Positions 15,251 to 25,127 of a stretch of 32,000 nucleotides of DNA are shown piece after piece. Location: NCBI GenBank assembly GCA_000025185.1, contig CP001848.1, positions 3,540,001-3,572,000 on the forward strand. Reading direction: 5' to 3'. Position numbers and translations under genes: made by a program. The DNA is from Pirellula staleyi DSM 6068. GTDB taxonomy: Bacteria; Planctomycetota; Planctomycetia; Pirellulales; Pirellulaceae. Each line of letters begins with the position of its first letter. Within the stretch, counting starts at the first letter, position 1. A model generated the notes under the pieces. That model was given only the letters and a program-made list of their open reading frames with translations. It searched no databases and was not told the DNA's origin.

Positions 15251-15337
15251 GGATGGGTGGCCGAGTGGTTTAAGGCAGCAGTCTTGAAAACTGCCGTAGT
15301 CGAAAGGCTACCGGGGGTTCGAATCCCTCCCCATCCG
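15251..15337 (+). tRNA. tRNA-Ser (anticodon UGA), class II with long variable arm
   Basis: Acceptor GGATGGG/CCCATCC plus discriminator G. D-arm GCC-GAGTGGTTTAA-GGC. Anticodon stem GCAGT/ACTGC with loop CTTGAAA. Variable arm CGTAGTCGAAAGGCTACCG. T-arm GGGGG-TTCGAAT-CCCTC. Confidence 0.9.
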
Positions 15338-16604
15338 CTGGGTATGTCGCACCAATTAGCAGGGTGTCGTTTTCCCTAGGAATATCGCACTTTTCATTTT
15401 TGCGGTGCGATTCGGTGCTAGTGTACACGGTAGTGTACTGCTTCGGATTCTGCTTCGCCTTTTCGGGGCTGGTTTCGGGCTCGTTGGTAGCCTTGGCGAA
15501 GTGGTCTTCGGTTGTCTGAAAGTAGTGTTTGCGGGCGACTTCTTCGCTGTTTCCCAGCCACTCGCAAACCACATGCGAGGGGAATTGCTCGGCTAGTTCT
15601 GTCTGGCGTGAGCTTCGCAAGTTGTGGAACAGGCGCGGCCAAGGTTTCAGGCCAGCGCGTTTGACGATCTTCTCGAAGGTTGTCCGCAAATTGCAATTGC
15701 GCCAGCCGGTTTCGATCTTCTGCCGCGATACGAGCTTGTCATCAATAACGTGCACGGCTCCTTCGGGAGCCAGGGCGAAGGATGTCTCGAGGTGCTCGAG
15801 CAGTTCGGGGAATAGCGGGATCGTGCGCGATTCCTTGCCGACGTGGTGCTCGGTCTTTGGCGAGCGGACGTTGATTCGTTTGGCGGACCAATCGACATCT
15901 TGCCAGCGGAGCGAGAGAACTTCACTAGGGCACCGCAGGCCACCGAAACGCGCTAGGGCGACAATCAACCGCCAATGATGGTCGGGGCAGGCCTCGAGCA
16001 GTTTGGCGGCATCCTGAGGCGTGATGAAGTGGCTACGGTCGGGCATCGAGGCTTGAATCGAAACGTCGGCAAAAGGGCTTTCCAGAATCAGCCGACGGCG
16101 CACCGCGGCGCGGAATACCATCGTCGCAAACTGCAATCGCTTCCGAACGGTCATCGGCGCGAGCTTCGTCCCCAGCAGGAACAGCTTGTAGTTGTCGGCA
16201 TCCCCAGCGGAAATATCGCGCAGCTGTTTCGACTCGCCAAAGTATTCGAGCAAGCTTCGCTCCCCCTGCTTCCAAATTACTTTGGTCGCTGGTTTGACGT
16301 CGGTTCGACCGGCGACGTACTCGGCAATGAATGGGCCAAGGTTCGATGCCGCGCGGCTGGGGCAAAGTCCTACCGCTGCCACCTTATTCTGTAGCGTGGC
16401 GTCGATGCTCGAGAGCCATGCCGACAAATCGCGGTCGTGAGCGTTGCCGGTCATCTTGGCCGATAGCAACTGCTCGACTCGCGCACAAACCGTTTCGGCG
16501 GTTTTCTGTGTTGCCTTGCCAAGTCGGATCGTTTGCCGCTTCTCGCTATCGTCGACAAATTGAATCCACCGATGCCCATCAGGGCGTTTGACGATGCTTG
16601 CCAT
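15270..16604 (-). CDS. Tyrosine-type site-specific integrase
   Basis: 444 aa. N-terminal SAM-like/arm region. Catalytic-domain motifs are RFGGLRCPSEVLSLRWQDVDW (Arg), HNLRSSRQTEL (H-x-x-R) and VARKHYFQ (Tyr). The 3' tail of the ORF crosses attL and overlaps the tRNA on the opposite strand. Confidence 0.9.
   Translation of the reverse strand: MASIVKRPDGHRWIQFVDDSEKRQTIRLGKATQKTAETVCARVEQLLSAKMTGNAHDRDLSAWLSSIDATLQNKVAAVGLCPSRAASNLGPFIAEYVAGRTDVKPATKVIWKQGERSLLEYFGESKQLRDISAGDADNYKLFLLGTKLAPMTVRKRLQFATMVFRAAVRRRLILESPFADVSIQASMPDRSHFITPQDAAKLLEACPDHHWRLIVALARFGGLRCPSEVLSLRWQDVDWSAKRINVRSPKTEHHVGKESRTIPLFPELLEHLETSFALAPEGAVHVIDDKLVSRQKIETGWRNCNLRTTFEKIVKRAGLKPWPRLFHNLRSSRQTELAEQFPSHVVCEWLGNSEEVARKHYFQTTEDHFAKATNEPETSPEKAKQNPKQYTTVYTSTESHRKNEKCDIPRENDTLLIGATYPADGEGFEPPVAFRLRQFSRLLP
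15318..15347 (+). repeat. attL core: 30-nt direct repeat (tRNA-Ser 3' end plus 10 nt)
   Basis: ttcgaatccctccccatccgctgggtatgt is identical to 22850-22879. Confidence 0.85.
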
Positions 16605-16906: not shown

Positions 16907-18892
16907 TCACCCCGCTTCTAGTGCCGGTGGTTCCTCGAGGCTATCCGACATGGCCATCTTGGCAATCTTGGAACTGTTGCCATCGAGATACGCCAGATTT
17001 CCCGCAGTTTCTTCAACATTGCCAAGAGTGCCAAGTTCTGTCGCTTCGGCTGGGCTGGCATTGTTGTCGGGCCATCGCCACCACCAAGGGCCAGGGATTT
17101 CGTGGCGCTCGGAGATAATTCCTAGTTCTCGCTTGGCTCGCCCTAGCGTTCGTTTGCTTCCCGCTTCGCCGTTCTTCCATTCGTCTTCAAGTTCTTTTGC
17201 CAAGCGAGGGCCACTTGCGAGCGCCGACGTCAGCCAATCCACTGCTTCGCTACGTGTTGCCGCTATCGGGCCGGGTTTGCCTCGAGTCGATTGTTTGTAC
17301 TGAAGCGCGAGAGCATCGTCGGCACTCATCGCCACACTATCCGCTTCCCAAACAATTCGCGCAGGTTCGCCGCTGATTGAATAGGCTAGCCCCTCTCCTT
17401 CGTGGGCAAGGTTGTTTTTGCCAGGAAGAAACAGCCGACGTTCCTTGTTGTCGGGATCGCGGGTGATATGCCACACCGCTCGGGCAATGCCGGTGAACGC
17501 GCGGCTACCTAGGGCCAGTTCGTCGGCACTTGTTCCGGCTCCCTTCCGTCGATGGGCAACGATCAAAACAGCTGCGCCAACTTTCTCAGCAAGCTTGAGA
17601 ATAGGAGTGAGCACCGATCGCACTTCGTTGTCTCGGTGGGCGTCGGTCTTCCCACCAAGAAAGCTGCCGATAGGGTCAATCACAATCAGCTTGCAGTCGG
17701 GGTATCTCTCTAGGGCCGATTCGATGGCATCGACATCAGCAAGCGTTATCAGCTTTTCGTACCGCTGCCCCTCACCATCAACGCGGCGAACCGCAGCAAG
17801 CAGTTGCACCTTTCGTGCGTCGGCTCCATGAGCATCGAGTCGGGGGCGAATAGTGTCAGCTGGGTCGTCTTCGGCAGAAATGAGAATCACCGACCCTTGG
17901 GGGCAGGGGCGACCATCGGGCCAAGGGGTGCCGGTAGTAACTCGCGAAGTGGCGTCGATCGTCATGAACGACTTTCCCTCGCCAGGACTGCCGACTAGCA
18001 GTGTGATTCGTCCCATCGGAATACGGCCGGGCCATAGCCAGTCGACTTCGCGGGCTTCAACATCAGCAAGGCAAGTTAGAATCGGGCCGGGCTCGAGTGG
18101 TTGCTCGGACTCGGGAATTGGCGTCGGTTCCCACATGGGGGTTGCTTTCAATAGTTGGGCGAGTTGTTCGAGGGTTCCTCCTGCTGCAATCCAGTCGCTT
18201 ACGTCTCCTTTCAGAGGCAGGCCGGGGAGTTTGACCACTCGAATCGACTTCGCGATTCCTTCAAGGGTATGGGCCACTTGCTGGGCGTGATTGCGGCCGG
18301 GCTCGTCATTGTCGGGGAAGATCACGACATCGCGACCAGCGAGAAACGCGGCGTGCTCGGCGGTCCACTTTCCAGCGCCGCCAGCGTTGCATGTGGCAAG
18401 CATTCCAAGGTCCTTAAGGTTGTCGACGTCTCTCTCCCCTTCTGGAATACCGACGTCCACACCGGGGTTGCCGACGATGTCAGGGAGGCTATAGGGGATC
18501 ACTCGCACACCTTTCACGGACCAATCCCAGCCACCACCCTCGCTCGGCTTTCGCTGCCGAAAGTCTTTAGGCTCGAAGCGCACCACTTGGAAAAGCACCT
18601 TCCCCGTTTCGTCGCGATAGTCGTACTCGGCGACAATCTTGCTACTTGTCTTCGGTCGCTTTTGTGGTCGATCACGCTCGGGCCAAAGGTCGCGCTTTTC
18701 GATGCCCATGGCTTGGCAGATTTCCTCGAGCGAGCACTTGGCGTGGCAGGTGAGAAGCACGTTCCCTTGGTCCCCTACCGCAATCGAAAGGCTGGGGTTT
18801 CGGTCGTTATGCGCGGGGCAACAGGCTTTCCACCTATTGCCTGATTGCCTCACGTTTTCAAGCTTGGCGAGCACTTTATCGATGGGGCTCAT
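16907..18892 (-). CDS. Primase-helicase: CHC2-like zinc finger plus Toprim primase fused to a RecA-like (AAA_25/RepA-type) ATPase
   Basis: From the ATG at 18892: MSPIDKVLAKL. Zinc motif CCPAHNDRNPSLS...LLTCHAKC. Toprim DVVIFPDNDEPGRNHAQ. Walker A LLVGSPGEGKS, Walker B-like LIVIDPIGSFLGG. The ATGA overlap with the upstream Xis-like ORF (18889-18892) supports this start over 19012. Confidence 0.85.
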   Translation of the reverse strand: MSPIDKVLAKLENVRQSGNRWKACCPAHNDRNPSLSIAVGDQGNVLLTCHAKCSLEEICQAMGIEKRDLWPERDRPQKRPKTSSKIVAEYDYRDETGKVLFQVVRFEPKDFRQRKPSEGGGWDWSVKGVRVIPYSLPDIVGNPGVDVGIPEGERDVDNLKDLGMLATCNAGGAGKWTAEHAAFLAGRDVVIFPDNDEPGRNHAQQVAHTLEGIAKSIRVVKLPGLPLKGDVSDWIAAGGTLEQLAQLLKATPMWEPTPIPESEQPLEPGPILTCLADVEAREVDWLWPGRIPMGRITLLVGSPGEGKSFMTIDATSRVTTGTPWPDGRPCPQGSVILISAEDDPADTIRPRLDAHGADARKVQLLAAVRRVDGEGQRYEKLITLADVDAIESALERYPDCKLIVIDPIGSFLGGKTDAHRDNEVRSVLTPILKLAEKVGAAVLIVAHRRKGAGTSADELALGSRAFTGIARAVWHITRDPDNKERRLFLPGKNNLAHEGEGLAYSISGEPARIVWEADSVAMSADDALALQYKQSTRGKPGPIAATRSEAVDWLTSALASGPRLAKELEDEWKNGEAGSKRTLGRAKRELGIISERHEIPGPWWWRWPDNNASPAEATELGTLGNVEETAGNLAYLDGNSSKIAKMAMSDSLEEPPALEAG

Positions 18893-19095
18893 TGGTTGCC
18901 CCCTTGTCGCTGCGAGGCAATCCAGCGTTCGATGTCGACAATCGAATAGCGCACCAATCGACCACACCGCACATACGGCAGGCCGGGCGTTTCTTCGAAG
19001 GTCATCCCCCAAAGTTTGCGAGGCGAAACAGCAAGCATCTTGGCCGCTTCGCGAGGGTCAACTAACAACTGCTTGGTAGGCTGTCGATCGTTCAT
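18889..19095 (-). CDS. Excisionase-family / AlpA-like helix-turn-helix protein
   Basis: 68 aa. LLVDPREAAKMLAVSPRKLWGMT...LPYVRCGRLVRYSIVDIERWI matches the HTH_17/excisionase pattern. Translationally coupled to the primase. Confidence 0.75.
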   Translation of the reverse strand: MNDRQPTKQLLVDPREAAKMLAVSPRKLWGMTFEETPGLPYVRCGRLVRYSIVDIERWIASQRQGGNQ

Positions 19096-19278: not shown

Positions 19279-20583
19279 TCACTTGCCAGAAGCACGCTTT
19301 TGTCGCTGGTACACACGATCGAGCAGATTATCGAATTCAGCGATTGACATATCTAATCCGCGAGCGAAATCACCTTTGTAAGTACCCACTTCCTTCGCAT
19401 TCTTCCAGTCGTCTGCAATCCGCTGTTCGTCGTATTCCTCTCGCTCAGTTTTTTGGGGGCCTCGCTTCTTTCGAGTTTGCTTCACTTTGGAAGGTGCTGC
19501 TTCTGGTGGCTTGGTGATTTCTAGCAGCATCCCTAGGAACTCTTTGACGGTTGTATTCTCATCAACCACAGCGCCCCGGATTTTTAGCATTCCACGAATC
19601 ACTTCCCATTCGGGCTGGTGCTTATCCATGCCAGGGGCGAAGACTTCGAGGCGAGCGAGATCGTCGGCACCTATCACCATGGACGGAAGTTCAATCGTCG
19701 GAAACATGCTGGGCGTTACGTTCTTCACCTTCTCACTCTCGCGCGTCATCGGCGCGAACGGCTTTTCGAGCCATCGCACCGGGCGATTGGGGTCGAGAGG
19801 TGCGGCTTCACTCTGCGAGGCCTTGTAGGTGGTTACACGAATCGGCTGAAGTGATTCGCGTGGGTCCGCTTTGGTAGTAAAGCTGGTGAATTCAACCGGC
19901 CTCATCGACTCATCAAACTTGCGGCGCAGGGTGCTCGATGCAAGTCGCAGGTATTGAACTGCCTCGAGCAGATCGTTGAATACGATCGTATCTTCTTCAT
20001 AGACTTCAAAGTGAACTCGCTGGAAATCCGGTGGCATCTCTTCCGGTTCGGGGTAGCTTTCATGGTTGGGGAAAAGCTTCTTTAACTCTTCGTAGTGAAG
20101 GTCAATCAGGAACTGCGGAGCGTAGTGAATCTCGATCGTTTGCTTCTTTCCGACATCGCCGTTGAGAATCTGCGATGCCGTGAAATTGAGCTTCGCAAGT
20201 CGTTTCCATGGTGTGTAGAGCTTCTGCTTGAACTCGTTCGCGTAGTCGACTCCGACGTTCACTTTGAGCCACTCGATGCCCCGCTCTACTTGATATTTGC
20301 GGAAGAGAATATCGAGGTCGAGTGCTTCCAGGGGCAATCGCAGCTTGGCCAGTTGTTGCGATATAGCTTCGAGGCGTTGCCTTTGGTGGTCGGTGAGCTT
20401 CTCGAGTTGTTGCCAAACAGATTCGCGAATCGCTCGCGCTTCGTTGGATAGTTTGCGATGCTTCGCATGATCGGCAGGACGATGATAGTCAGCTGCGATG
20501 GTGCCAAGGTCTTTGGCAAGTGGGTCGAGACAATCGTCGCAAAGGTGCCAGGAATCAGAAGCTTTAGCCATCGTGCTCGACAA
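19279..20583 (-). CDS. Hypothetical protein (434 aa), no recognised domain; basic C-terminal tail
   Basis: Long ORF with normal amino-acid composition, unlike the Arg/Pro-rich spurious frames. It lies within the island, co-oriented with the replication/integration module. I recognise no family. Confidence 0.65.
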   Translation of the reverse strand: MSSTMAKASDSWHLCDDCLDPLAKDLGTIAADYHRPADHAKHRKLSNEARAIRESVWQQLEKLTDHQRQRLEAISQQLAKLRLPLEALDLDILFRKYQVERGIEWLKVNVGVDYANEFKQKLYTPWKRLAKLNFTASQILNGDVGKKQTIEIHYAPQFLIDLHYEELKKLFPNHESYPEPEEMPPDFQRVHFEVYEEDTIVFNDLLEAVQYLRLASSTLRRKFDESMRPVEFTSFTTKADPRESLQPIRVTTYKASQSEAAPLDPNRPVRWLEKPFAPMTRESEKVKNVTPSMFPTIELPSMVIGADDLARLEVFAPGMDKHQPEWEVIRGMLKIRGAVVDENTTVKEFLGMLLEITKPPEAAPSKVKQTRKKRGPQKTEREEYDEQRIADDWKNAKEVGTYKGDFARGLDMSIAEFDNLLDRVYQRQKRASGK

Positions 20584-21140
20584 TCCGCAAGGGTGGTGGG
20601 CTACTACCTACAACCCCAGCAAAATGAAGCATTCGCGAGCAACTGGCAAGCGTAGCTTTGCCATTAGGTGCGACAATAAACGAGCAGAAGCAACACGCAG
20701 CAAATACCGATACTGACAGCAAACCCCATTCAAGAAACTATGGCCGTAAAATGTCCCCGCTATGCTCGACGGTCTCGGCACTTCCCTAGCGCCGGATTAT
20801 CGCCCCTAGGGCCTCGCATCACCGGATGCCGGGTTTCCCACTTTCCCGAAAACTCTAGCCTAGGTTCACGTTCGGTCTAGTGCTCGTCAGTCGCCACAAA
20901 ATGAACGTAGGGGGGCTGGGGTTGGGTGATTGCGGGCGTGGTGGTTTACTTGCTGAACTTGCCGCGGGATTCGCGGGCGAAACCGAGATCGGCCAAGGCG
21001 TCGAGAATTTCTTCGATCTGCTCGGCATTTCCGCGGGTGAATTGCATGGCAAGTAATCCGGGGTTAGGTTAGCCAACTTATCTAGGAATTTCAGATCCGT
21101 ATCGACCGTCCCACGTTACGCGCTTTTGGGAAATAACTTA

Positions 21141-22220
21141 ATGAGTCTTCGGCCGCAGCAAGACGTCCACAAAAGTCTAATATCGACCACAAGTCGGCTA
21201 GTTGGTGAGTACGAGACGGACTGTGCCTTGCTCTCTCATGCATGGCCTGACTTTAGGGATCGAAGCGCTTTTATTCGCAGGGAGGAAGGACCCGCTTCAC
21301 GAAGCGCCTTCATTTTTGCATTTCGAACCGTTGTGTCCGAGGAAAGAATGGGGCCAGTTCCCAACTACAACCCTGTCGGTGAAATGATCTGTTCGTACCT
21401 TGCAGTTCTTTACGGAAAGCGATTTGACTCTCACGGGCAAATAGAGGGAAGCGGTTACTTTCGACTCCCCGATCTAAGTGAGTTTGGGCATTTATGCCGA
21501 AGTGATCTATCGTTCAACTCCCATAAAGTGCGAGTCGACTACTCTGTGCCCCTCAATCTAGTAGAGTTCTCGCGTATTGAGCGACTACTAAAGGCTGGAG
21601 CAATTGACATAAAGTTTCTGCGGTCGTTTCAGACTATTTGCAAGTTCTACCTTCAATCGTTGCAAACAGCTGAGCATGATCCAGAAGTCGCATACCTTCA
21701 TTTGATTACTGCAATCGAGGTGCTTTCGAACTTCTTTGAGTTCGAGAAGGATGAGTTGCTTGACGACAGAACATTGAATGCGTTGAGTGAGATCGAAAGC
21801 GGATTGACCGACGGAAAGCAGATCGCTGCTTTGTTTCGCAGTAGGATGTTGCAAGTTAAACGTCGTTTTTTGAAGTCTGTTCTTCGGCTAGTCGACGACG
21901 ACTTCTTTACGCGATCAGAGGCAACTGAGCCACTATTTGCTCTGAAGCTTGACAGTTTTGAATCATGTATGGGCGCTGCCTACGACCTTCGAAGCAGATA
22001 CGTGCATACAGGAGTACCGTTCGGGTCCTGGGTTTCGAGAGGAATTGGCGGGCCAAATACAGAAGTGCAAGTTGGTGCGCCTGTTGTCGACGAAGATCGA
22101 GAACTTGGGAAGCTTATTGGGAGGGCCCCAACGTTTGCGGGATTGGAACGTGTAACGCGATATGTGATTCTCAGATTGGCAGAATCACAGGGTGTATACG
22201 TGGCACCGCCTTCGACTTGA
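21141..22220 (+). CDS. Island cargo protein with C-terminal HEPN-like domain (R-x4-H motif); putative RNase/abortive-infection-type effector
   Basis: Start at the ATG at 21141 (the track start at 21126 is TTG). The motif AAYDLRSRYVHTG places R-x4-H at nt 21990-22007. It is preceded by the helix AYLHLITAIEVLSNFF. My spot GC counts of 60-nt lines are about 45-50% here versus about 63% in katG. It is the only plus-strand gene in the element. Confidence 0.6.
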   Translation: MSLRPQQDVHKSLISTTSRLVGEYETDCALLSHAWPDFRDRSAFIRREEGPASRSAFIFAFRTVVSEERMGPVPNYNPVGEMICSYLAVLYGKRFDSHGQIEGSGYFRLPDLSEFGHLCRSDLSFNSHKVRVDYSVPLNLVEFSRIERLLKAGAIDIKFLRSFQTICKFYLQSLQTAEHDPEVAYLHLITAIEVLSNFFEFEKDELLDDRTLNALSEIESGLTDGKQIAALFRSRMLQVKRRFLKSVLRLVDDDFFTRSEATEPLFALKLDSFESCMGAAYDLRSRYVHTGVPFGSWVSRGIGGPNTEVQVGAPVVDEDRELGKLIGRAPTFAGLERVTRYVILRLAESQGVYVAPPST

Positions 22221-22248: not shown

Positions 22249-22503
22249 TCAACCAAACAACAGGAAGTGTGCAATGAACTCACTTAGCTGGGTGAGGAAC
22301 AGAGCATAGTTAGCACGCTCGGCCGCTGCCGACGATTGCCAATCGGCGATGAACTTCTCGAGGTCAACGGCGGGGCTGGTGGGCTGATTCACGGGAGAGT
22401 CGATACCGATGGTTGCTTGCGAGCTAGAAAGGGGGCTCGCTGTTATACCATCCATCGGAAGGGGGCGACTAGGAATCGCGATTAGCTCGCCTACCCACGG
22501 CAT
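22249..22503 (-). pseudogene. Truncated N-terminal fragment of an MmeI/PglX-like (type IIL/IIG) DNA methyltransferase
   Basis: VDLEKFIADWQSSAAAERANYALFLTQLSEFI matches the conserved N-terminal F-I-x-x-W...ERANYQLFL-x-x-L motif that I recall from MmeI-family/BREX PglX enzymes. The ORF stops after about 84 aa, 29 nt from the end of the HEPN-like gene. Confidence 0.5.
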
Positions 22504-22849
22504 CGGGTCCTATGGCTGAACCTTTGCAGCTGGGGATATCCGGAACTAGCGACGGTGCCAAGTTCCTTAGATGGATCGGGCAGAGCAAAAACAGTTCAGT
22601 GTCCTGCTAGTTCGTCACTGCGTCGCATGCGTTGGAAGCGGGAAAGAACCTAAGCCCTGGGGCCTAGGCCGATGGTCGTGAAGCTTTGACCATGGCCAGA
22701 ATGCCCGCGCGGAGAGGCTCGGGGAGTGTGGGCCAAGCTTCGAGCAGGGCTCGCAAACGGGGATCGGCGGAAACTGCTTCGGATTCTGCTTCGCCTTGCT
22801 TTTCAGAATGACGTAAGTTGTTTGTGTGACAATGCTTTACGTCGATCGC

Positions 22850-22879
22850 TTCGAATCCCTCCCCATCCGCTGGGTATGT
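22850..22879 (+). repeat. attR core: partial tRNA-Ser 3' end copy
   Basis: ttcgaatccctccccatccgctgggtatgt is identical to 15318-15347. The upstream sequence (gtcgatcgc) does not match the tRNA body, so this is not a second tRNA. Confidence 0.85.
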
Positions 22880-23006
22880 TGCGCCGAGAATCGCAGGGTC
22901 TCGTTTTCCCTAGGAATATCCCACTTTTCATTTTTGCGGTGCGCGAAAAGATTGATGCGCGGGTGCTAGTGTACACGGTAGTGTACTGCTTCGGATTCTG
23001 CTTCGC
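22880..23006 (-). pseudogene. Remnant of an integrase 3' tail (homologous to 15348-15460)
   Basis: About 127 nt aligns with the integrase-tail region right of attL, with scattered substitutions and one ~14-nt indel. The minus-strand translation keeps AKQNPKQYTTVYTST. Homology ends at about 23006. Confidence 0.6.
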
Positions 23007-23467
23007 TCCATCTAGCATCGATTGGGGATCGGCTTGAGCCGTGGCGAAGAACCTGCCCCCATTGGCAGATTTTGTTCGCGCAGAGACCTCTCACGAATTC
23101 GAGATATCGTCGAAAGCCTCGGGGCCTACTAGCAAGGCTTTTTAACGATTCGCTTGATGCGGGTTCTGACCGATTCCGCGGGACTGTGCCACTGCAGCAC
23201 AGCAGGGTGTGCGGAACTGATTCGCTCAAGAAGAATTGCACGCCCATGGCTCCCTGCGGTTGCTGGGCCGAGGTGCGTTTTTCTAAGCATTTTTCTTAGC
23301 ATACTTCCCCGGACCGACGCCTGATTCTTCGCTCCATTGGAGCCAACAACGTCGTAATGCGAGGAGTGGCTCAGCACCACAATTCAGCATGGCACAGTTA
23401 TTGCGACACTAGAGCCTTGGGTTCATCACTGGGGAGTGTTTCGCTCTGCGAAAGGTGCGGTGTGGCC

Positions 23468-24601
23468 ATGCGTAACCTCATGCTTTGGTTCGTGTTTCCT
23501 GCGGCTCTTTTAGGAGCCACTTACGCGCATGCTGACAATCAACAATCGTTTGATCAGCTTGGAAAAGAACTCGGTGAAATTGCTGCCAAAGCGTCGGCCG
23601 AAGCCGATCCGAAACTGCGTTCCCAGCTACAACAGCAGGCCATCGCAAAGCAGCAAGAGCTAACGCAGTTTCTTGCAAAGCTTGACGTTGATTCGCGATC
23701 AAAACTGCGAGTCCATAATGACCCGCTGGCCATCTTAAAAGAAAGACTTGAGCAAGGGCGTGCGCTCTACGCCAAGAATGAAGATGCCGCTGCCCTGGCC
23801 ATAAAATTCTGTCAGGAGGCAACTGCAGAAACGGACCCTCTCTTAAGGGAGGGAAAACTGCAGAAAGCCGAGCAGCAAATCCGCAAGTTAGGTGTGCGAC
23901 TAACGAGCATTCCTGACTATGCCATCATTGCCACCGACGTGGAGCTCTCTAGTGACTTGCTGGAAACCTTCACCAGCATCGCCAAGAATATTCGTCTTCG
24001 CGTTTACAGCAACACCATTCTCGAGAACCTGGAAGCACAGCTGATCGCTTTTCGTGAAAAGTTGAGTGCGGCACAAGACGAGAACCTTGTCTGGATAACC
24101 ACACAACATCAAGAGTTTGGAGATACCCTCGCGACCGCGGGACTTCTACCTCAAGGGACATTTGAGGGCATGATAACGGTCAGCAGTGCCCAACTGGTGA
24201 TGGTCGGTAATGAGAAAGAAAACGTAAAGTTCACAGAAGGGGCATTCACGGGGCGAATCAAACTGGTGCTGAAGGGAACTGTCGCTACGGGAGTTGTTTC
24301 TTTTGGGGAGGAGGAAGGTAGGTCGGTAGCAAGGCTGAATGGCACTATGAACGCAGCTTCTGGCAAGATCATGTTTCACCTTAACGCCCCAACTTTAGGG
24401 GCGATGCCTGGGGTGGTTGTTACACAGTTTCGTGGATTGGGTGATGGCACATCGGTGATGGCTAGCCGCATTGTTGGTAATTTGAGTTTAGATGTCAGCC
24501 TAACAGGTACTTGGGAAGAAGATGGTGAAACAAAGACTTCAGAGTTTCGTTTCACGGCTGTCGGCAAGTGGGAAGCAGATCAGCCTTTGGCTGTGAAATA
24601 A
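23468..24601 (+). CDS. Secreted hypothetical protein (helical N-terminal half, beta-rich C-terminal half)
   Basis: An internal ATG at 23468 gives MRNLMLWFVFPAALLGATYAHA (signal peptide). GC is patchy and lower than surroundings. I recognise no family. Confidence 0.65.
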   Translation: MRNLMLWFVFPAALLGATYAHADNQQSFDQLGKELGEIAAKASAEADPKLRSQLQQQAIAKQQELTQFLAKLDVDSRSKLRVHNDPLAILKERLEQGRALYAKNEDAAALAIKFCQEATAETDPLLREGKLQKAEQQIRKLGVRLTSIPDYAIIATDVELSSDLLETFTSIAKNIRLRVYSNTILENLEAQLIAFREKLSAAQDENLVWITTQHQEFGDTLATAGLLPQGTFEGMITVSSAQLVMVGNEKENVKFTEGAFTGRIKLVLKGTVATGVVSFGEEEGRSVARLNGTMNAASGKIMFHLNAPTLGAMPGVVVTQFRGLGDGTSVMASRIVGNLSLDVSLTGTWEEDGETKTSEFRFTAVGKWEADQPLAVK

Positions 24602-24659
24602 TTTGTATCTCCGATTACGGTGTCGCCACTCATCGGCCATTTTTAGGGAGTAACTACCT

Positions 24660-25127
24660 ATGAGACATTTCATTCCTTATGTCATCACATTAATGGTAAT
24701 GGGGGGCGTAGTAACCTCTAGCTTACGCGCAGAGGCACCACCGCAAGGGCAGCCCAAACTTGGGTTTACAGGAACGATTGTCGATATGCCCAAGGACTTT
24801 GAGATTCCAGCGCCCGAAGGGCTGCCGAATCGGGGCATACGGGTCGATCGTGTTAATGCCAGCGGACCAGCGGCAAAAATGGGGCTCGAGCGAGGCGACA
24901 TCATTGTTGCCATCGACATTTGGCGATTCACAACACTCGAAGGTTATCTTCAAGCTTTGCGATGCGCCGAGCAGCGTCCATCGATCTACATTCGGAACGT
25001 GAGAAATGGAAAGCTTATTCGCCGTACCATCGATTTGCCACATCAAGTCAACGAGGAAGAATGTATGGCTAAATCTCCCCACACCTATTGGATTGCCATC
25101 GATCTCGAAGAGGATATGCGTGAGTAG
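24660..25127 (+). CDS. Secreted PDZ-domain protein
   Basis: Signal/TM segment MRHFIPYVITLMVMGGVVTSSLRA. The PDZ core is GIRVDRVNASGPAAKMGLERGDIIVAIDIWRFTTLEGYLQAL. An agggag sequence lies about 10 nt upstream of the ATG. Confidence 0.75.
   Translation: MRHFIPYVITLMVMGGVVTSSLRAEAPPQGQPKLGFTGTIVDMPKDFEIPAPEGLPNRGIRVDRVNASGPAAKMGLERGDIIVAIDIWRFTTLEGYLQALRCAEQRPSIYIRNVRNGKLIRRTIDLPHQVNEEECMAKSPHTYWIAIDLEEDMRE

What the first reader, a model, noticed from the sequence alone, without database searches (positions are those of the whole stretch)
21141..22220. Lower-GC cargo gene with HEPN-like R-x4-H motif: candidate single-gene defence or abortive-infection effector
This 364-aa ORF is the only plus-strand gene of the element. 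My spot counts give about 45-50% GC here against about 60% or more in neighbours. It sits at the att-distal cargo position next to a decayed restriction-type methyltransferase. Its C-terminal half is helical and carries AAYDLRSRYVHTG (R289-x4-H294 of the track ORF, nt 21990-22007), the HEPN RNase signature. An earlier conserved-looking helix is AYLHLITAIEVLSNFF. The N-terminal ~180 aa match nothing I recognise. An unknown N-terminal sensor-like domain plus a C-terminal HEPN domain recalls ApeA-like and Abi-type single-protein systems, but that assignment is inference.
Basis: partly seen in the sequence, partly recalled or inferred. Interest (0 to 1): 0.75.

Follow-up and report, generated by a model that had tools for sequence, protein, structure and literature searches.

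The report
Mobile single-gene HEPN-like RNase candidate
A foreign-looking gene at the far end of a small integrative island in Pirellula staleyi encodes a member of a large, uncharacterised, horizontally mobile protein family whose C-terminal half looks like a HEPN RNA-cutting domain, so it is a reasonable but untested candidate for a one-gene anti-phage or toxin system.

Summary
The ORF is real (ATG 21141 to stop 22220, 359 aa; 364 aa from an upstream TTG) and 100% identical to a Pirellula staleyi DSM 6068 hypothetical protein. It is 48.8% GC against 57-59% for host genes. It is the last intact gene of a 7.5-kb tRNA-Ser island bounded by ~190-nt direct repeats.

It belongs to a family of ~900 clusters (50% identity), nearly all ~360 aa, in at least 12 bacterial phyla and one archaeon. 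Across 241 members R284 (100%), H289 (99%), S285 and E193 (100%) are essentially invariant. A confident AlphaFold model places them as the HEPN definition requires: Glu in helix 2, a variable insert, and Rx4H at the end of helix 3.

Homologs are single-gene integron cassettes, plasmid genes or island cargo, often beside defence, toxin-antitoxin or recombinase genes. No partner gene recurs, and none was found in phages.

No fold search gave a significant HEPN hit. Similarity to ApeA is limited to the catalytic motifs (hhalign E 0.02). PADLOC finds no known system, and the N-terminal domain matches nothing.

Verdict: a probable HEPN RNase with a new architecture. The defence role is inferred, it is not an ApeA member, and the "decayed methyltransferase" neighbour is unverified.

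The parts
21141..22220 (+). CDS of the 359-aa protein (an alternative TTG start at 21126 gives 364 aa); stop codon included
   Evidence: ORF list. 100% identical to a P. staleyi DSM 6068 hypothetical protein, P0001. Homolog N-termini align to the ATG start.
21141..21587 (+). N-terminal alpha/beta domain (aa 1-149) with no recognisable fold or family. It carries a near-invariant basic set: R54, K93, R94, H98, R131.
   Evidence: AF2 secondary structure. 13 positions are >=90% conserved. No Pfam, NCBIfam, PADLOC, PDB or BFVD match.
21414..21437 (+). GKRFDSHG block (aa 92-99), the most conserved motif of the N-terminal domain
   Evidence: G92 100%, K93 100%, R94 92%, F95 98%, D96 90%, H98 95%, G99 99.6% in 241 sequences.
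21588..22217 (+). C-terminal all-helical HEPN-like domain (aa 150-359). H1 is 157-176, H2 is 181-196, a variable helical insert spans 203-257, H3 is 273-290 and H4 is 332-349.
   Evidence: AF2 models with pLDDT 88 (full) and 92 (domain). The topology matches the HEPN description in PMC3710099. The insert is the least conserved segment.
21717..21719 (+). Codon of E193, the invariant acidic residue in helix 2 (within AYLHLITAIEVL)
   Evidence: 241/241 Glu. It aligns with the invariant E389 of ApeA in the co-linear hhalign alignment.
21990..22007 (+). R284-S-R-Y-V-H289, the Rx4H motif at the C-terminal end of helix 3
   Evidence: R 241/241, S285 98.8%, H 239/241. Position on the helix.
15251..15338 (+). 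tRNA-Ser(TGA), the integration target of the island
   Evidence: ARAGORN.
15318..15501 (.). attL-side direct repeat (tRNA 3' end plus about 150 nt)
   Evidence: Repeat families D1, D2 and D4, 80-96% identical to 22850-23049.
22850..23049 (.). attR-side direct repeat, which closes the 7.5-kb island
15270..16604 (-). Tyrosine integrase of the island
   Evidence: Phage_integrase plus SAM-like domain.
16907..19012 (-). Primase-helicase-type replication protein (CHC2 zinc finger, Toprim, AAA_25)
18889..19095 (-). HTH_17 (AlpA/excisionase-type) small DNA-binding protein
19279..20583 (-). 434-aa island protein of unknown function, transcribed divergently from the HEPN-like gene
   Evidence: No family at E <= 10 beyond noise.

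Best explanation
The gene encodes a self-contained two-domain protein of a widespread, horizontally mobile and so far uncharacterised family. It was brought into P. staleyi as cargo of a 7.5-kb tRNA-Ser integrative island.

Shown here: the C-terminal half (aa 150-359) has the sequence hallmarks and predicted helix topology of a HEPN domain. E193 lies in helix 2, a variable insert follows, and R284-S-x3-H289 lies at the end of helix 3.

Inferred mechanism:
- The domain homodimerises to form a composite metal-independent RNase site, as in other HEPN enzymes.
- The equally conserved N-terminal alpha/beta domain keeps the nuclease silent until it binds a nucleic-acid or nucleotide-type signal of infection or stress. 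Its cluster of invariant basic residues (R54, K93, R94, H98, R131) would form the binding site.
- RNA cleavage, with tRNA or mRNA as likely targets, then arrests the cell in an abortive-infection type outcome.

The protein travels as a single-gene integron cassette with no recurrent neighbour. Any control of toxicity must therefore be built into the protein itself rather than supplied by an antitoxin.
For: Family size and shape. There are 533 hits in the 5.8-billion-protein collection and 913 clusters at 50% identity, nearly all about 360 aa and matching full length.

Conservation. In 241 members R284 is 100%, H289 99%, S285 99% and E193 100%. H4 residues G334, E336, R337 and R340 are 97-100%.

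Structure. AF2 models are confident (pLDDT 88 and 92). Their helix order, insert position and motif placement match the published HEPN definition. The H2-H3 insert is the least conserved segment, as in other HEPN families.

Resemblance to a known HEPN family. The best and only hhalign match to the ApeA family is the catalytic helix. A co-linear alignment pairs H1, E193/E389 and R284/R521-H289/H526. The score of 21.7 compares with a permutation null of 14.1 +/- 2.4, reached by 2 of 150 permutations.

Fold hints. HEPN RNases HepS (3 chains) and Csm6 (2 chains) are among the top 31 Foldseek hits of the C-domain, all non-significant.

Context.
- The Vibrio homolog is a single-gene cassette ending at an attC-type repeat.
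- Integron-type arrays occur in Marinobacterium and in two MAGs.
- Plasmid copies lie next to XerS/SMEK/TIR or Phd-YoeB.
- The closest relatives lie next to HNH/HigBA/ParE, or HepT-MNT and AIPR.
- Nearest neighbours in 71 loci include Septu/Gabija/OLD-like ATPases, type I RM, RhuM-Fic, PIN and integrases.
- No partner recurs in about 80 loci.

Distribution and composition. The family is sparse and patchy, in about 98 of 185,579 species representatives across many phyla. The GC content is foreign and the gene sits at the island cargo position.
Against: - No significant structural match to any solved HEPN protein. Foldseek E >= 0.13 for the full model and >= 1.3 for the C-domain.
- No hit to any Pfam, NCBIfam or PADLOC model for any member, even at E <= 10.
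- Profile-profile probability against ApeA is only 2%.
- The typical E-x3-[KR] form of the helix-2 acidic motif is absent; the sequence is E-I-L-S-N.
- In Nostoc and Caulobacter the gene sits in lineage-conserved chromosomal positions beside housekeeping genes.
- There is no experimental evidence for RNase activity, toxicity or phage protection for any member.
- Expression in P. staleyi is unknown, and no sigma-70-like promoter was found upstream.
Confidence: 0.55

Rival explanations
1. It is a true but streamlined member of the ApeA anti-phage family, a 'mini-ApeA'. It would work like ApeA as a ligand-gated HEPN tRNA anticodon nuclease that assembles into ring oligomers.
For: - UniRef and JGI label family members (P0097, P0004) 'Apea-like HEPN', the same label UniRef gives to a genuine ApeA relative, P0273.
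- The catalytic motif Y-x-x-R-[NS]-x3-H-x-G and the helix-2 A-[ILG]-E-x-L core are shared, and they align co-linearly.
- The hhalign score beats 148 of 150 permutations.
- Integron cassettes are reported to hold streamlined versions of known systems (bioRxiv 10.1101/2024.07.02.601686).
Against: - ApeA proteins are 536-614 aa with all-helical N, Mid and split-HEPN domains. This family is about 360 aa with an alpha/beta N-domain.
- The PADLOC ApeA model gives no hit, although that model also misses Thr1ApeA.
- hhalign probability is 0.2-2% and only about 21 columns align confidently.
- The N-domains show no similarity (E 0.66).
- ApeA's invariant Trp (W385) is absent.
Confidence: 0.15
2. It is a HEPN-type RNase whose role is not anti-phage defence. 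It could be a stabilisation or addiction factor for mobile elements, or a stress-induced dormancy factor, as Anantharaman et al. proposed for integron-borne HEPN proteins. It could also be a competition factor between mobile elements.
For: - It occurs on integron arrays, plasmids and islands alongside many TA modules.
- PMC3710099 proposes stress and dormancy roles for integron HEPN cassettes.
- No family member has been tested against phage.
- Only about 10% of nearest neighbours are recognisable defence genes.
Against: - No cognate antitoxin-like partner recurs, so classical addiction is hard to explain.
- 18% of tested V. cholerae cassettes of unknown function, including a HEPN-like one, protect against phage.
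- Neighbours such as AIPR, Septu/Gabija-like ATPases and type I RM point to defence islands.
Confidence: 0.2
3. The C-terminal domain is not a HEPN nuclease. It would be a helical domain that happens to carry a conserved R-x4-H as part of another site, for example a phosphate or ligand site formed with the basic N-terminal residues. The protein would then have an unrelated enzymatic or binding function.
For: - No significant fold or profile match to any HEPN protein or model.
- The N-terminal domain is as conserved as the putative catalytic core and has its own invariant K, R and H residues.
- One R-x4-H is expected by chance in a protein of this composition.
Against: - The co-occurrence and order of an invariant Glu in H2, a variable insert, and Rx4H with a polar +1 residue at the end of H3 running into a loop is exactly the HEPN signature.
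- The only above-noise profile match to ApeA falls on these same elements.
- HEPN proteins are over-represented among the top non-significant structural hits.
Confidence: 0.1

Closest known systems
ApeA (single-protein HEPN anti-phage system; Gao et al. 2020; structures and mechanism in bioRxiv 10.64898/2026.01.26.701840)
   Same: - A single gene with no partner.
- A C-terminal HEPN-type domain with a long insert before the catalytic helix.
- A near-identical catalytic motif: Y-x-x-R-[N/S]-x3-H-x-G.
- An invariant Glu in the A-[ILG]-E-x-L helix.
- Non-catalytic N-terminal part(s) that in ApeA form a ligand pocket together with the HEPN domain.
- Some databases give both the label 'Apea-like HEPN'.
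   Different: - About 360 aa versus 536-614 aa.
- An alpha/beta N-domain instead of all-helical N and Mid domains.
- No PADLOC ApeA hit.
- hhalign probability of 2% or less.
- No Trp at the ApeA W385 position.
- Oligomeric state, ligand and target are unknown.
Other single-protein HEPN abortive-infection nucleases: HepS (Gifsy-1 prophage), DARNA/PD-T7-3, PD-T4-2, AbiJ/Taranis, and 'Esos' of the V. cholerae integron
   Same: - The same design principle of one polypeptide combining a HEPN RNase with a sensing or regulatory domain.
- Carried on mobile elements, including integron cassettes.
- HepS chains are among the top (non-significant) structural hits.
   Different: - DARNA has the reverse domain order, with an N-terminal HEPN and a C-terminal alpha-solenoid, and is 456 aa.
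- No PADLOC model of any of these systems hits this family.
- HepS is only about 200 aa.
- The relationship to Esos could not be tested because no sequence was available.
HepT-MNT (HEPN toxin / nucleotidyltransferase antitoxin) modules
   Same: A minimal HEPN core with Rx4H, and a toxic RNase logic.
   Different: No MNT or other antitoxin gene accompanies this family in about 80 loci. The protein is three times larger and has an additional conserved N-terminal domain.
P4-like or PICI-like small integrative islands that carry defence cargo
   Same: The carrier element has an integrase, an AlpA/excisionase-type HTH and a primase-helicase. Variable cargo sits at the att-distal end, and the island is integrated at a tRNA gene.
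   Different: No capsid-hijacking or packaging genes were recognised. The host is a planctomycete. Satellite status was not tested.

Membership tests
HEPN superfamily (Anantharaman et al. 2013, PMC3710099) | Conserved Rx4-6H motif | tested here: met
   R284 in 241/241 and H289 in 239/241 sequences, with a spacing of 4.
HEPN superfamily (Anantharaman et al. 2013, PMC3710099) | Motif located at the end of core helix 3 and the start of the H3-H4 loop | tested here: met
   In both AF2 models the helix spans residues 273-290, the motif is at 284-289, and a long loop follows. This rests on predicted models, not an experimental structure.
HEPN superfamily (Anantharaman et al. 2013, PMC3710099) | Polar residue immediately after the conserved Arg | tested here: met
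   S285 is 98.8% conserved. Typical families have N, D or H here, and ApeA has N.
HEPN superfamily (Anantharaman et al. 2013, PMC3710099) | Conserved acidic residue in helix 2, typically E-x3-[KR] | tested here: inconclusive
   E193 is 100% conserved in predicted H2 (181-196). The +4 position is Asn or Ser, not K or R.
HEPN superfamily (Anantharaman et al. 2013, PMC3710099) | Four-helix up-down bundle that superposes on solved HEPN domains | tested here: inconclusive
HEPN superfamily (Anantharaman et al. 2013, PMC3710099) | Homodimer with a composite active site; metal-independent RNase activity | not testable with these tools
   Requires a multimer prediction or biochemistry.
ApeA defence system | Match to the ApeA family model (PADLOC PDLC02157) | tested here: not met
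   No hit for the window protein or for P0103, P0027 or the Bacillus homolog. The positive controls Ec1ApeA (E = 0) and P0296 (1e-94) hit. The model misses Thr1ApeA, so it is narrow.
ApeA defence system | Three-domain all-helical architecture (N, Mid, split HEPN) of about 540-610 aa | tested here: not met
   The protein is 359 aa with a beta-containing N-domain of about 150 aa and a helical C-domain of 210 aa.
ApeA defence system | Detectable profile-profile homology to ApeA family alignments | tested here: inconclusive
   hhalign gives E 0.37 for the full-length A1 (44 sequences) versus A3 comparison, 0.069 for the full-length 241-sequence alignment and 0.022 for the C-domains. Probability is <= 2% and only the catalytic helix aligns confidently. 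The empirical p is about 0.013.
Pfam HEPN_Apea (PF18739) | Hit above the gathering threshold | not testable with these tools
   The Pfam copy returned no HEPN_Apea hit even for genuine ApeA proteins, so the negative results for this family are uninformative. Only third-party labels exist.
Other PADLOC-catalogued HEPN systems (PD-T7-3/DARNA, PD-T4-2, Abi families) | Match to any PADLOC-DB v2 model | tested here: not met
   Zero families at E <= 10 for the window protein and at E <= 1 for the three other members scanned. The DARNA domain order is reversed.
HepT-MNT type toxin-antitoxin | Adjacent cognate nucleotidyltransferase or antitoxin gene | tested here: not met
   No recurrent neighbour in about 80 loci. 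The Vibrio copy is a one-gene cassette.
Integron gene cassette (applies to homologs, not to the window copy) | Single ORF followed by an attC recombination site within an array | tested here: met
   In L002, 12-15 attC-type repeats are present and the first starts at the homolog's stop codon. An IntI fragment lies upstream in L007. The window copy is instead in a tRNA-Ser island.

The most novel reading that the evidence does not exclude
This is the founding example of an unrecognised, very widespread single-protein defence family: a compact, integron-cassette-sized, ligand- or nucleic-acid-gated HEPN RNase. Its previously undescribed N-terminal alpha/beta domain would sense infection through its invariant basic pocket (R54, K93, R94, H98, R131) and release an ApeA-like catalytic core. 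If so, it would be a convergent or extremely streamlined counterpart of ApeA, with a new sensor fold.
Probability: 0.3. Interest if true: 0.65.

Novelty: new variant of a known kind. Interest (0 to 1): 0.45.

Why it matters
If the inference holds, this family adds a compact (about 1.1 kb) self-contained HEPN immune or toxin module. It occurs in at least a dozen phyla and travels as integron cassettes, plasmid genes and island cargo, yet current defence-system catalogues (PADLOC v2) miss it.

Its N-terminal domain has no recognisable relative and is as conserved as the nuclease core. It could therefore reveal a new way of sensing infection, which is the least understood step for most single-protein systems.

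For P. staleyi itself, the finding shows a small tRNA-Ser island delivering foreign cargo into a planctomycete genome. The practical value is a well-defined set of point mutants and a short gene that can be tested directly.

Tried and rejected
Family and sequence searches
- Pfam, NCBIfam and PADLOC scans of the window protein, 44 aligned members, divergent Firmicute and Pseudoalteromonas homologs and unusually long members found nothing. Controls showed that the Pfam copy does not report HEPN_Apea even for real ApeA, and that the PADLOC ApeA model misses Thr1ApeA. These negatives are therefore weak.
- A profile search of PDB sequences gave only a spurious IcmQ hit.

Structure searches
- Foldseek of the full model against the PDB and BFVD, and of the C-domain against the PDB, gave no significant hit.

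Comparison with known systems
- hhalign against an ApeA alignment built from sequences recovered via the preprint supplement showed motif-level similarity only.
- I considered DARNA/PD-T7-3 as the same family and rejected it, because its domain order is reversed and there is no PADLOC hit.
- I considered 'Esos', the V. cholerae HEPN-like anti-phage cassette, as a relative. I could not test this because no locus tag or sequence is held.

Context and carriage
- No conserved partner or antitoxin gene exists.
- I found no phage carriage: none in 50,697 phage records or in IMG/VR (pattern-limited).
- The upstream 33-aa ORF (20946-21047, - strand) was considered as a possible partner. It has no family support, and homolog cassettes leave no room for an equivalent gene.

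Local features
- The 'decayed methyltransferase' was tested by Pfam at E <= 10 and by tblastn against plasmids, with no support.
- An attC-like hairpin downstream of the window gene is not evident.
- A promoter and terminator scan around the gene was uninformative.
Full report
**1. The observation**

The window contains an intact + strand ORF from 21126 (TTG) or 21141 (ATG) to 22220. The protein from the ATG is 359 aa and is 100% identical to a 'conserved hypothetical protein' of Pirellula staleyi DSM 6068. Homologs start at the equivalent of the ATG (M-x-LRP...), so 359 aa is the likely product.

The ORF is 48.8% GC (GC3 47.5%). Flanking host genes are 57-59% GC (GC3 64-70%).

A lone R-x4-H is expected about 0.7 times by chance in a protein with 31 Arg and 8 His. 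The motif only gains meaning from its conservation, covered in section 3.

**2. The carrier element**

tRNA-Ser(TGA) lies at 15251-15338. Its 3' end plus about 150 nt (15318-15501) is repeated at 22850-23049 with 80-96% identity. These repeats delimit a 7.5-kb island. In order, the island carries:
- a tyrosine integrase (15270-16604, - strand);
- a CHC2/Toprim/AAA_25 primase-helicase (16907-19012, - strand);
- an HTH_17 AlpA/excisionase-type protein (18889-19095, - strand);
- a 434-aa protein with no family (19279-20583, - strand);
- the ORF of interest, the only + strand gene;
- an 84-aa ORF (22249-22503, - strand).

I could not confirm this with Pfam at E <= 10 or with tblastn against plasmids.

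**3. The family**

The protein has 533 significant relatives in the 5.8-billion-protein collection. In the exhaustive search there are 913 clusters at 50% identity (323 at E <= 1e-30). Almost all are about 360 aa and match end to end, so the two-domain architecture is fixed.

A scan of one genome per species found it in about 98 of 185,579 species. These include Planctomycetota, Alpha-, Beta- and Gammaproteobacteria, Desulfobacterota, Myxococcota, Acidobacteriota, Chloroflexota, Cyanobacteria, Bacteroidota, Firmicutes, Verrucomicrobiota, Patescibacteria and a Methanothrix archaeon. Copies at about 33% identity occur on Bacillus, Exiguobacterium and Pseudoalteromonas plasmids. I found none in phage genomes, in IMG/VR contigs or among viral structure models.

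In a 241-sequence alignment the following are conserved:
- R284 at 100%, H289 at 99.2%, S285 at 98.8%, Y281 at 98% and G291 at 99%;
- E193 and Y170 at 100%;
- H4 residues G334, E336, R337 and R340 at 97-100%;
- N-terminal residues G92 and K93 at 100%, R94 at 92%, H98 at 95%, G99 at 99.6%, P110 at 99%, R131 at 100% and R54 at 94%.

**4. Is the C-terminal half a HEPN domain?**

AlphaFold models are confident: pLDDT 88 and pTM 0.90 for the full length, and pLDDT 92 for residues 150-359. They show an alpha/beta N-domain (about residues 1-150) followed by these helices:

| Element | Residues | Notes |
|---|---|---|
| Helix | 157-176 | H1 |
| Helix | 181-196 | H2, contains E193 |
| Helical insert | 203-257 | Least conserved segment |
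| Helix | 273-290 | H3, R284...H289 at its end |
| Loop | 291-331 | Long loop |
| Helix | 332-349 | H4 |

The published definition of HEPN is a four-helix up-down bundle. It frequently has an insert between H2 and H3, carries Rx4-6H at the end of H3 running into the loop, has a polar residue after the Arg, and has an acidic residue in H2 (PMC3710099). The family meets each sequence and topology criterion. Its least conserved segment is exactly the H2-H3 insert.

No Pfam, NCBIfam or PADLOC model hits any member. Controls weaken these negatives. The Pfam copy reports no HEPN_Apea even for bona fide ApeA, and the PADLOC ApeA model misses the experimentally studied Thr1ApeA. RefSeq, UniRef and JGI label some members 'HEPN domain-containing' or 'Apea-like HEPN', but I could not reproduce those labels.

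**5. Relation to ApeA**

I recovered ApeA sequences from the supplement of bioRxiv 10.64898/2026.01.26.701840 and expanded them into a 31-sequence family alignment.

ApeA's invariant residues are W385, E389, R516, Y518, R521, N522 and H526. Its motifs are ...W-I-A-L-E-S-L... and ...Y-x-x-R-N-x3-H-x-G. Ours are ...I-T-A-x-E-I-L... and A-Y-D-L-R-S-x3-H-T-G.

hhalign's best and only match is this catalytic helix. E was 0.37 full length with the first alignment. With the 241-sequence alignment it was 0.069 full length and 0.022 for the C-domains, with probability <= 2%. Cross-domain controls gave E 0.1-0.7.

A relaxed co-linear alignment pairs H1 (KFY with LRY), E193 with E389, and R284/H289 with R521/H526. 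A column-permutation null gives 14.1 +/- 2.4 against the observed 21.7, reached by 2 of 150 permutations.

The resemblance is therefore above chance but confined to the catalytic core. ApeA proteins are 536-614 aa with all-helical N, Mid and split-HEPN domains. This protein is not a demonstrable ApeA member. DARNA/PD-T7-3 has the opposite domain order.

**6. Genomic context of homologs**

- In V. parahaemolyticus the gene's stop codon abuts the first of 12-15 attC-type repeats, in an array that also holds Tae4 and SUKH cassettes. It is a single-gene integron cassette.
- In Marinobacterium it lies downstream of an integron-integrase fragment. Two MAGs show similar same-strand arrays with IS110 insertions.
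- On a B. cereus plasmid it sits beside XerS, a SMEK protein and a TIR protein. In Pseudoalteromonas it sits beside Phd-YoeB.
- The closest relatives (68% and 59% identity) sit between KfrA/HigBA/ParE/UmuDC and an HNH nuclease, and between HepT-MNT and an AIPR abortive-infection gene.
- Clustering of flanking ORFs from about 80 loci found no recurrent partner. The only multi-locus clusters were lineage-specific synteny in Caulobacter and Nostoc, plus recombinases and reverse transcriptases.
- Among 134 nearest neighbours there are three integrases, three Septu/Gabija/OLD-like ATPases, two type I restriction R subunits, a RhuM-Fic protein, and PIN_12 and DUF2726 proteins.

This is a mobile, defence-leaning and partner-free context. 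Integron cassettes of unknown function have been shown experimentally to be rich in anti-phage genes, including one with only a HEPN-like domain (bioRxiv 10.1101/2024.07.02.601686).

**7. Most likely mechanism**

Shown here:
- a fixed two-domain protein;
- invariant Glu, Arg, Ser and His residues placed as in HEPN enzymes;
- an equally constrained N-domain with a basic residue cluster;
- single-gene mobility.

Inferred from established HEPN biology (PMC3710099; the ApeA and DARNA preprints):
- dimerisation creates a composite metal-independent RNase site;
- the N-domain holds the enzyme off until it binds a phosphate-bearing signal (nucleic acid or nucleotide);
- RNA cleavage then arrests growth.

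I put about 0.7 on 'HEPN-type RNase' and about 0.5-0.55 on the full 'self-contained defence or abortive-infection effector' statement.

**8. Novelty and score**

Single-protein HEPN defence nucleases are a known kind (ApeA, HepS, DARNA, AbiJ-like). This family has a different architecture and an N-terminal domain with no detectable relative. It is absent from PADLOC v2 and, as far as I could find, has not been characterised experimentally. I rate it a new variant of a known kind.

Interest is moderate at 0.45. It is a good, cheap experimental candidate from a very widespread family, but it would not surprise a specialist, and nothing here is functionally demonstrated.

Noticed in passing
window 22700-23049 (also 22773-22797 and 22985-23009): Beyond the tRNA 3' end, the attR-side repeat copies about 150 nt of the 3' end of the integrase gene (encoding ...AKQNPKQYTTVYTST...). 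An extra 25-nt copy lies at 22773-22797. A fragment reading ...DPRLRALLEAWPTLPEPLRAGILAMVKA is also present on the - strand. This looks like remnants of an earlier or tandem related island at the same tRNA-Ser site.
   Followed up: partly
window 23357-25127: Just outside attR lies a 414-aa ORF that is also low in GC (50.8%, GC3 50.8%). It has a hydrophobic, signal-peptide-like N-terminal stretch on inspection (not tested) and no family match. A small PDZ-domain ORF (24660-25127) follows. The region 23.0-25.5 kb is 50-55% GC, so it may be further foreign DNA or the remains of an older island.
   Followed up: partly
window 15270-15338: The integrase reading frame runs through attL into the tRNA-Ser gene and overlaps it by 69 nt. 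Its C-terminal tail is therefore encoded by att and tRNA sequence.
   Followed up: no
window 19279-20583 (- strand): A 434-aa island protein with no Pfam match beyond noise, transcribed divergently from the HEPN-like gene. Its function is unknown, and it is not found next to homologs elsewhere.
   Followed up: partly
window 20946-21047 (- strand): A 33-aa ORF (MQFTRGNAEQIEEILDALADLGFARESRGKFSK) lies in the 550-nt gap upstream of the HEPN-like gene. It has no family support and is possibly a gene fragment.
   Followed up: partly
window 16907-19095: The longest primase ORF (TTG start at 19012) overlaps the HTH_17 ORF (18889-19095). The true primase start is probably further downstream.
   Followed up: no
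tools / controls (P0267, P0268, P0273): The Pfam copy reports no HEPN_Apea hit for genuine ApeA proteins. The PADLOC ApeA model misses the experimentally studied Thr1ApeA. Negative scans for ApeA-type HEPN domains with these libraries should not be over-read.
   Followed up: yes
L082, L084, L085, L086 (Nostoc) and L049, L050, L055, L056, L057 (Caulobacter): Within these genera the homolog sits in a conserved chromosomal position; in Nostoc it is next to chlL/chlN-like genes. This shows stable vertical retention in some lineages, in contrast to the mobile contexts elsewhere.
   Followed up: partly
L046 6001-7035: A full-length homolog (42% identity) is present in a Methanothrix (archaeal) MAG chromosome, which implies inter-domain transfer or a binning artefact.
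   Followed up: no
L021/L007, L022/L009, L089: Reverse-transcriptase genes (RVT_1, some with a GIIM domain) recur near the homolog in three loci. They are probably group II introns in cassette arrays, but a defence-associated RT was not excluded.
   Followed up: no
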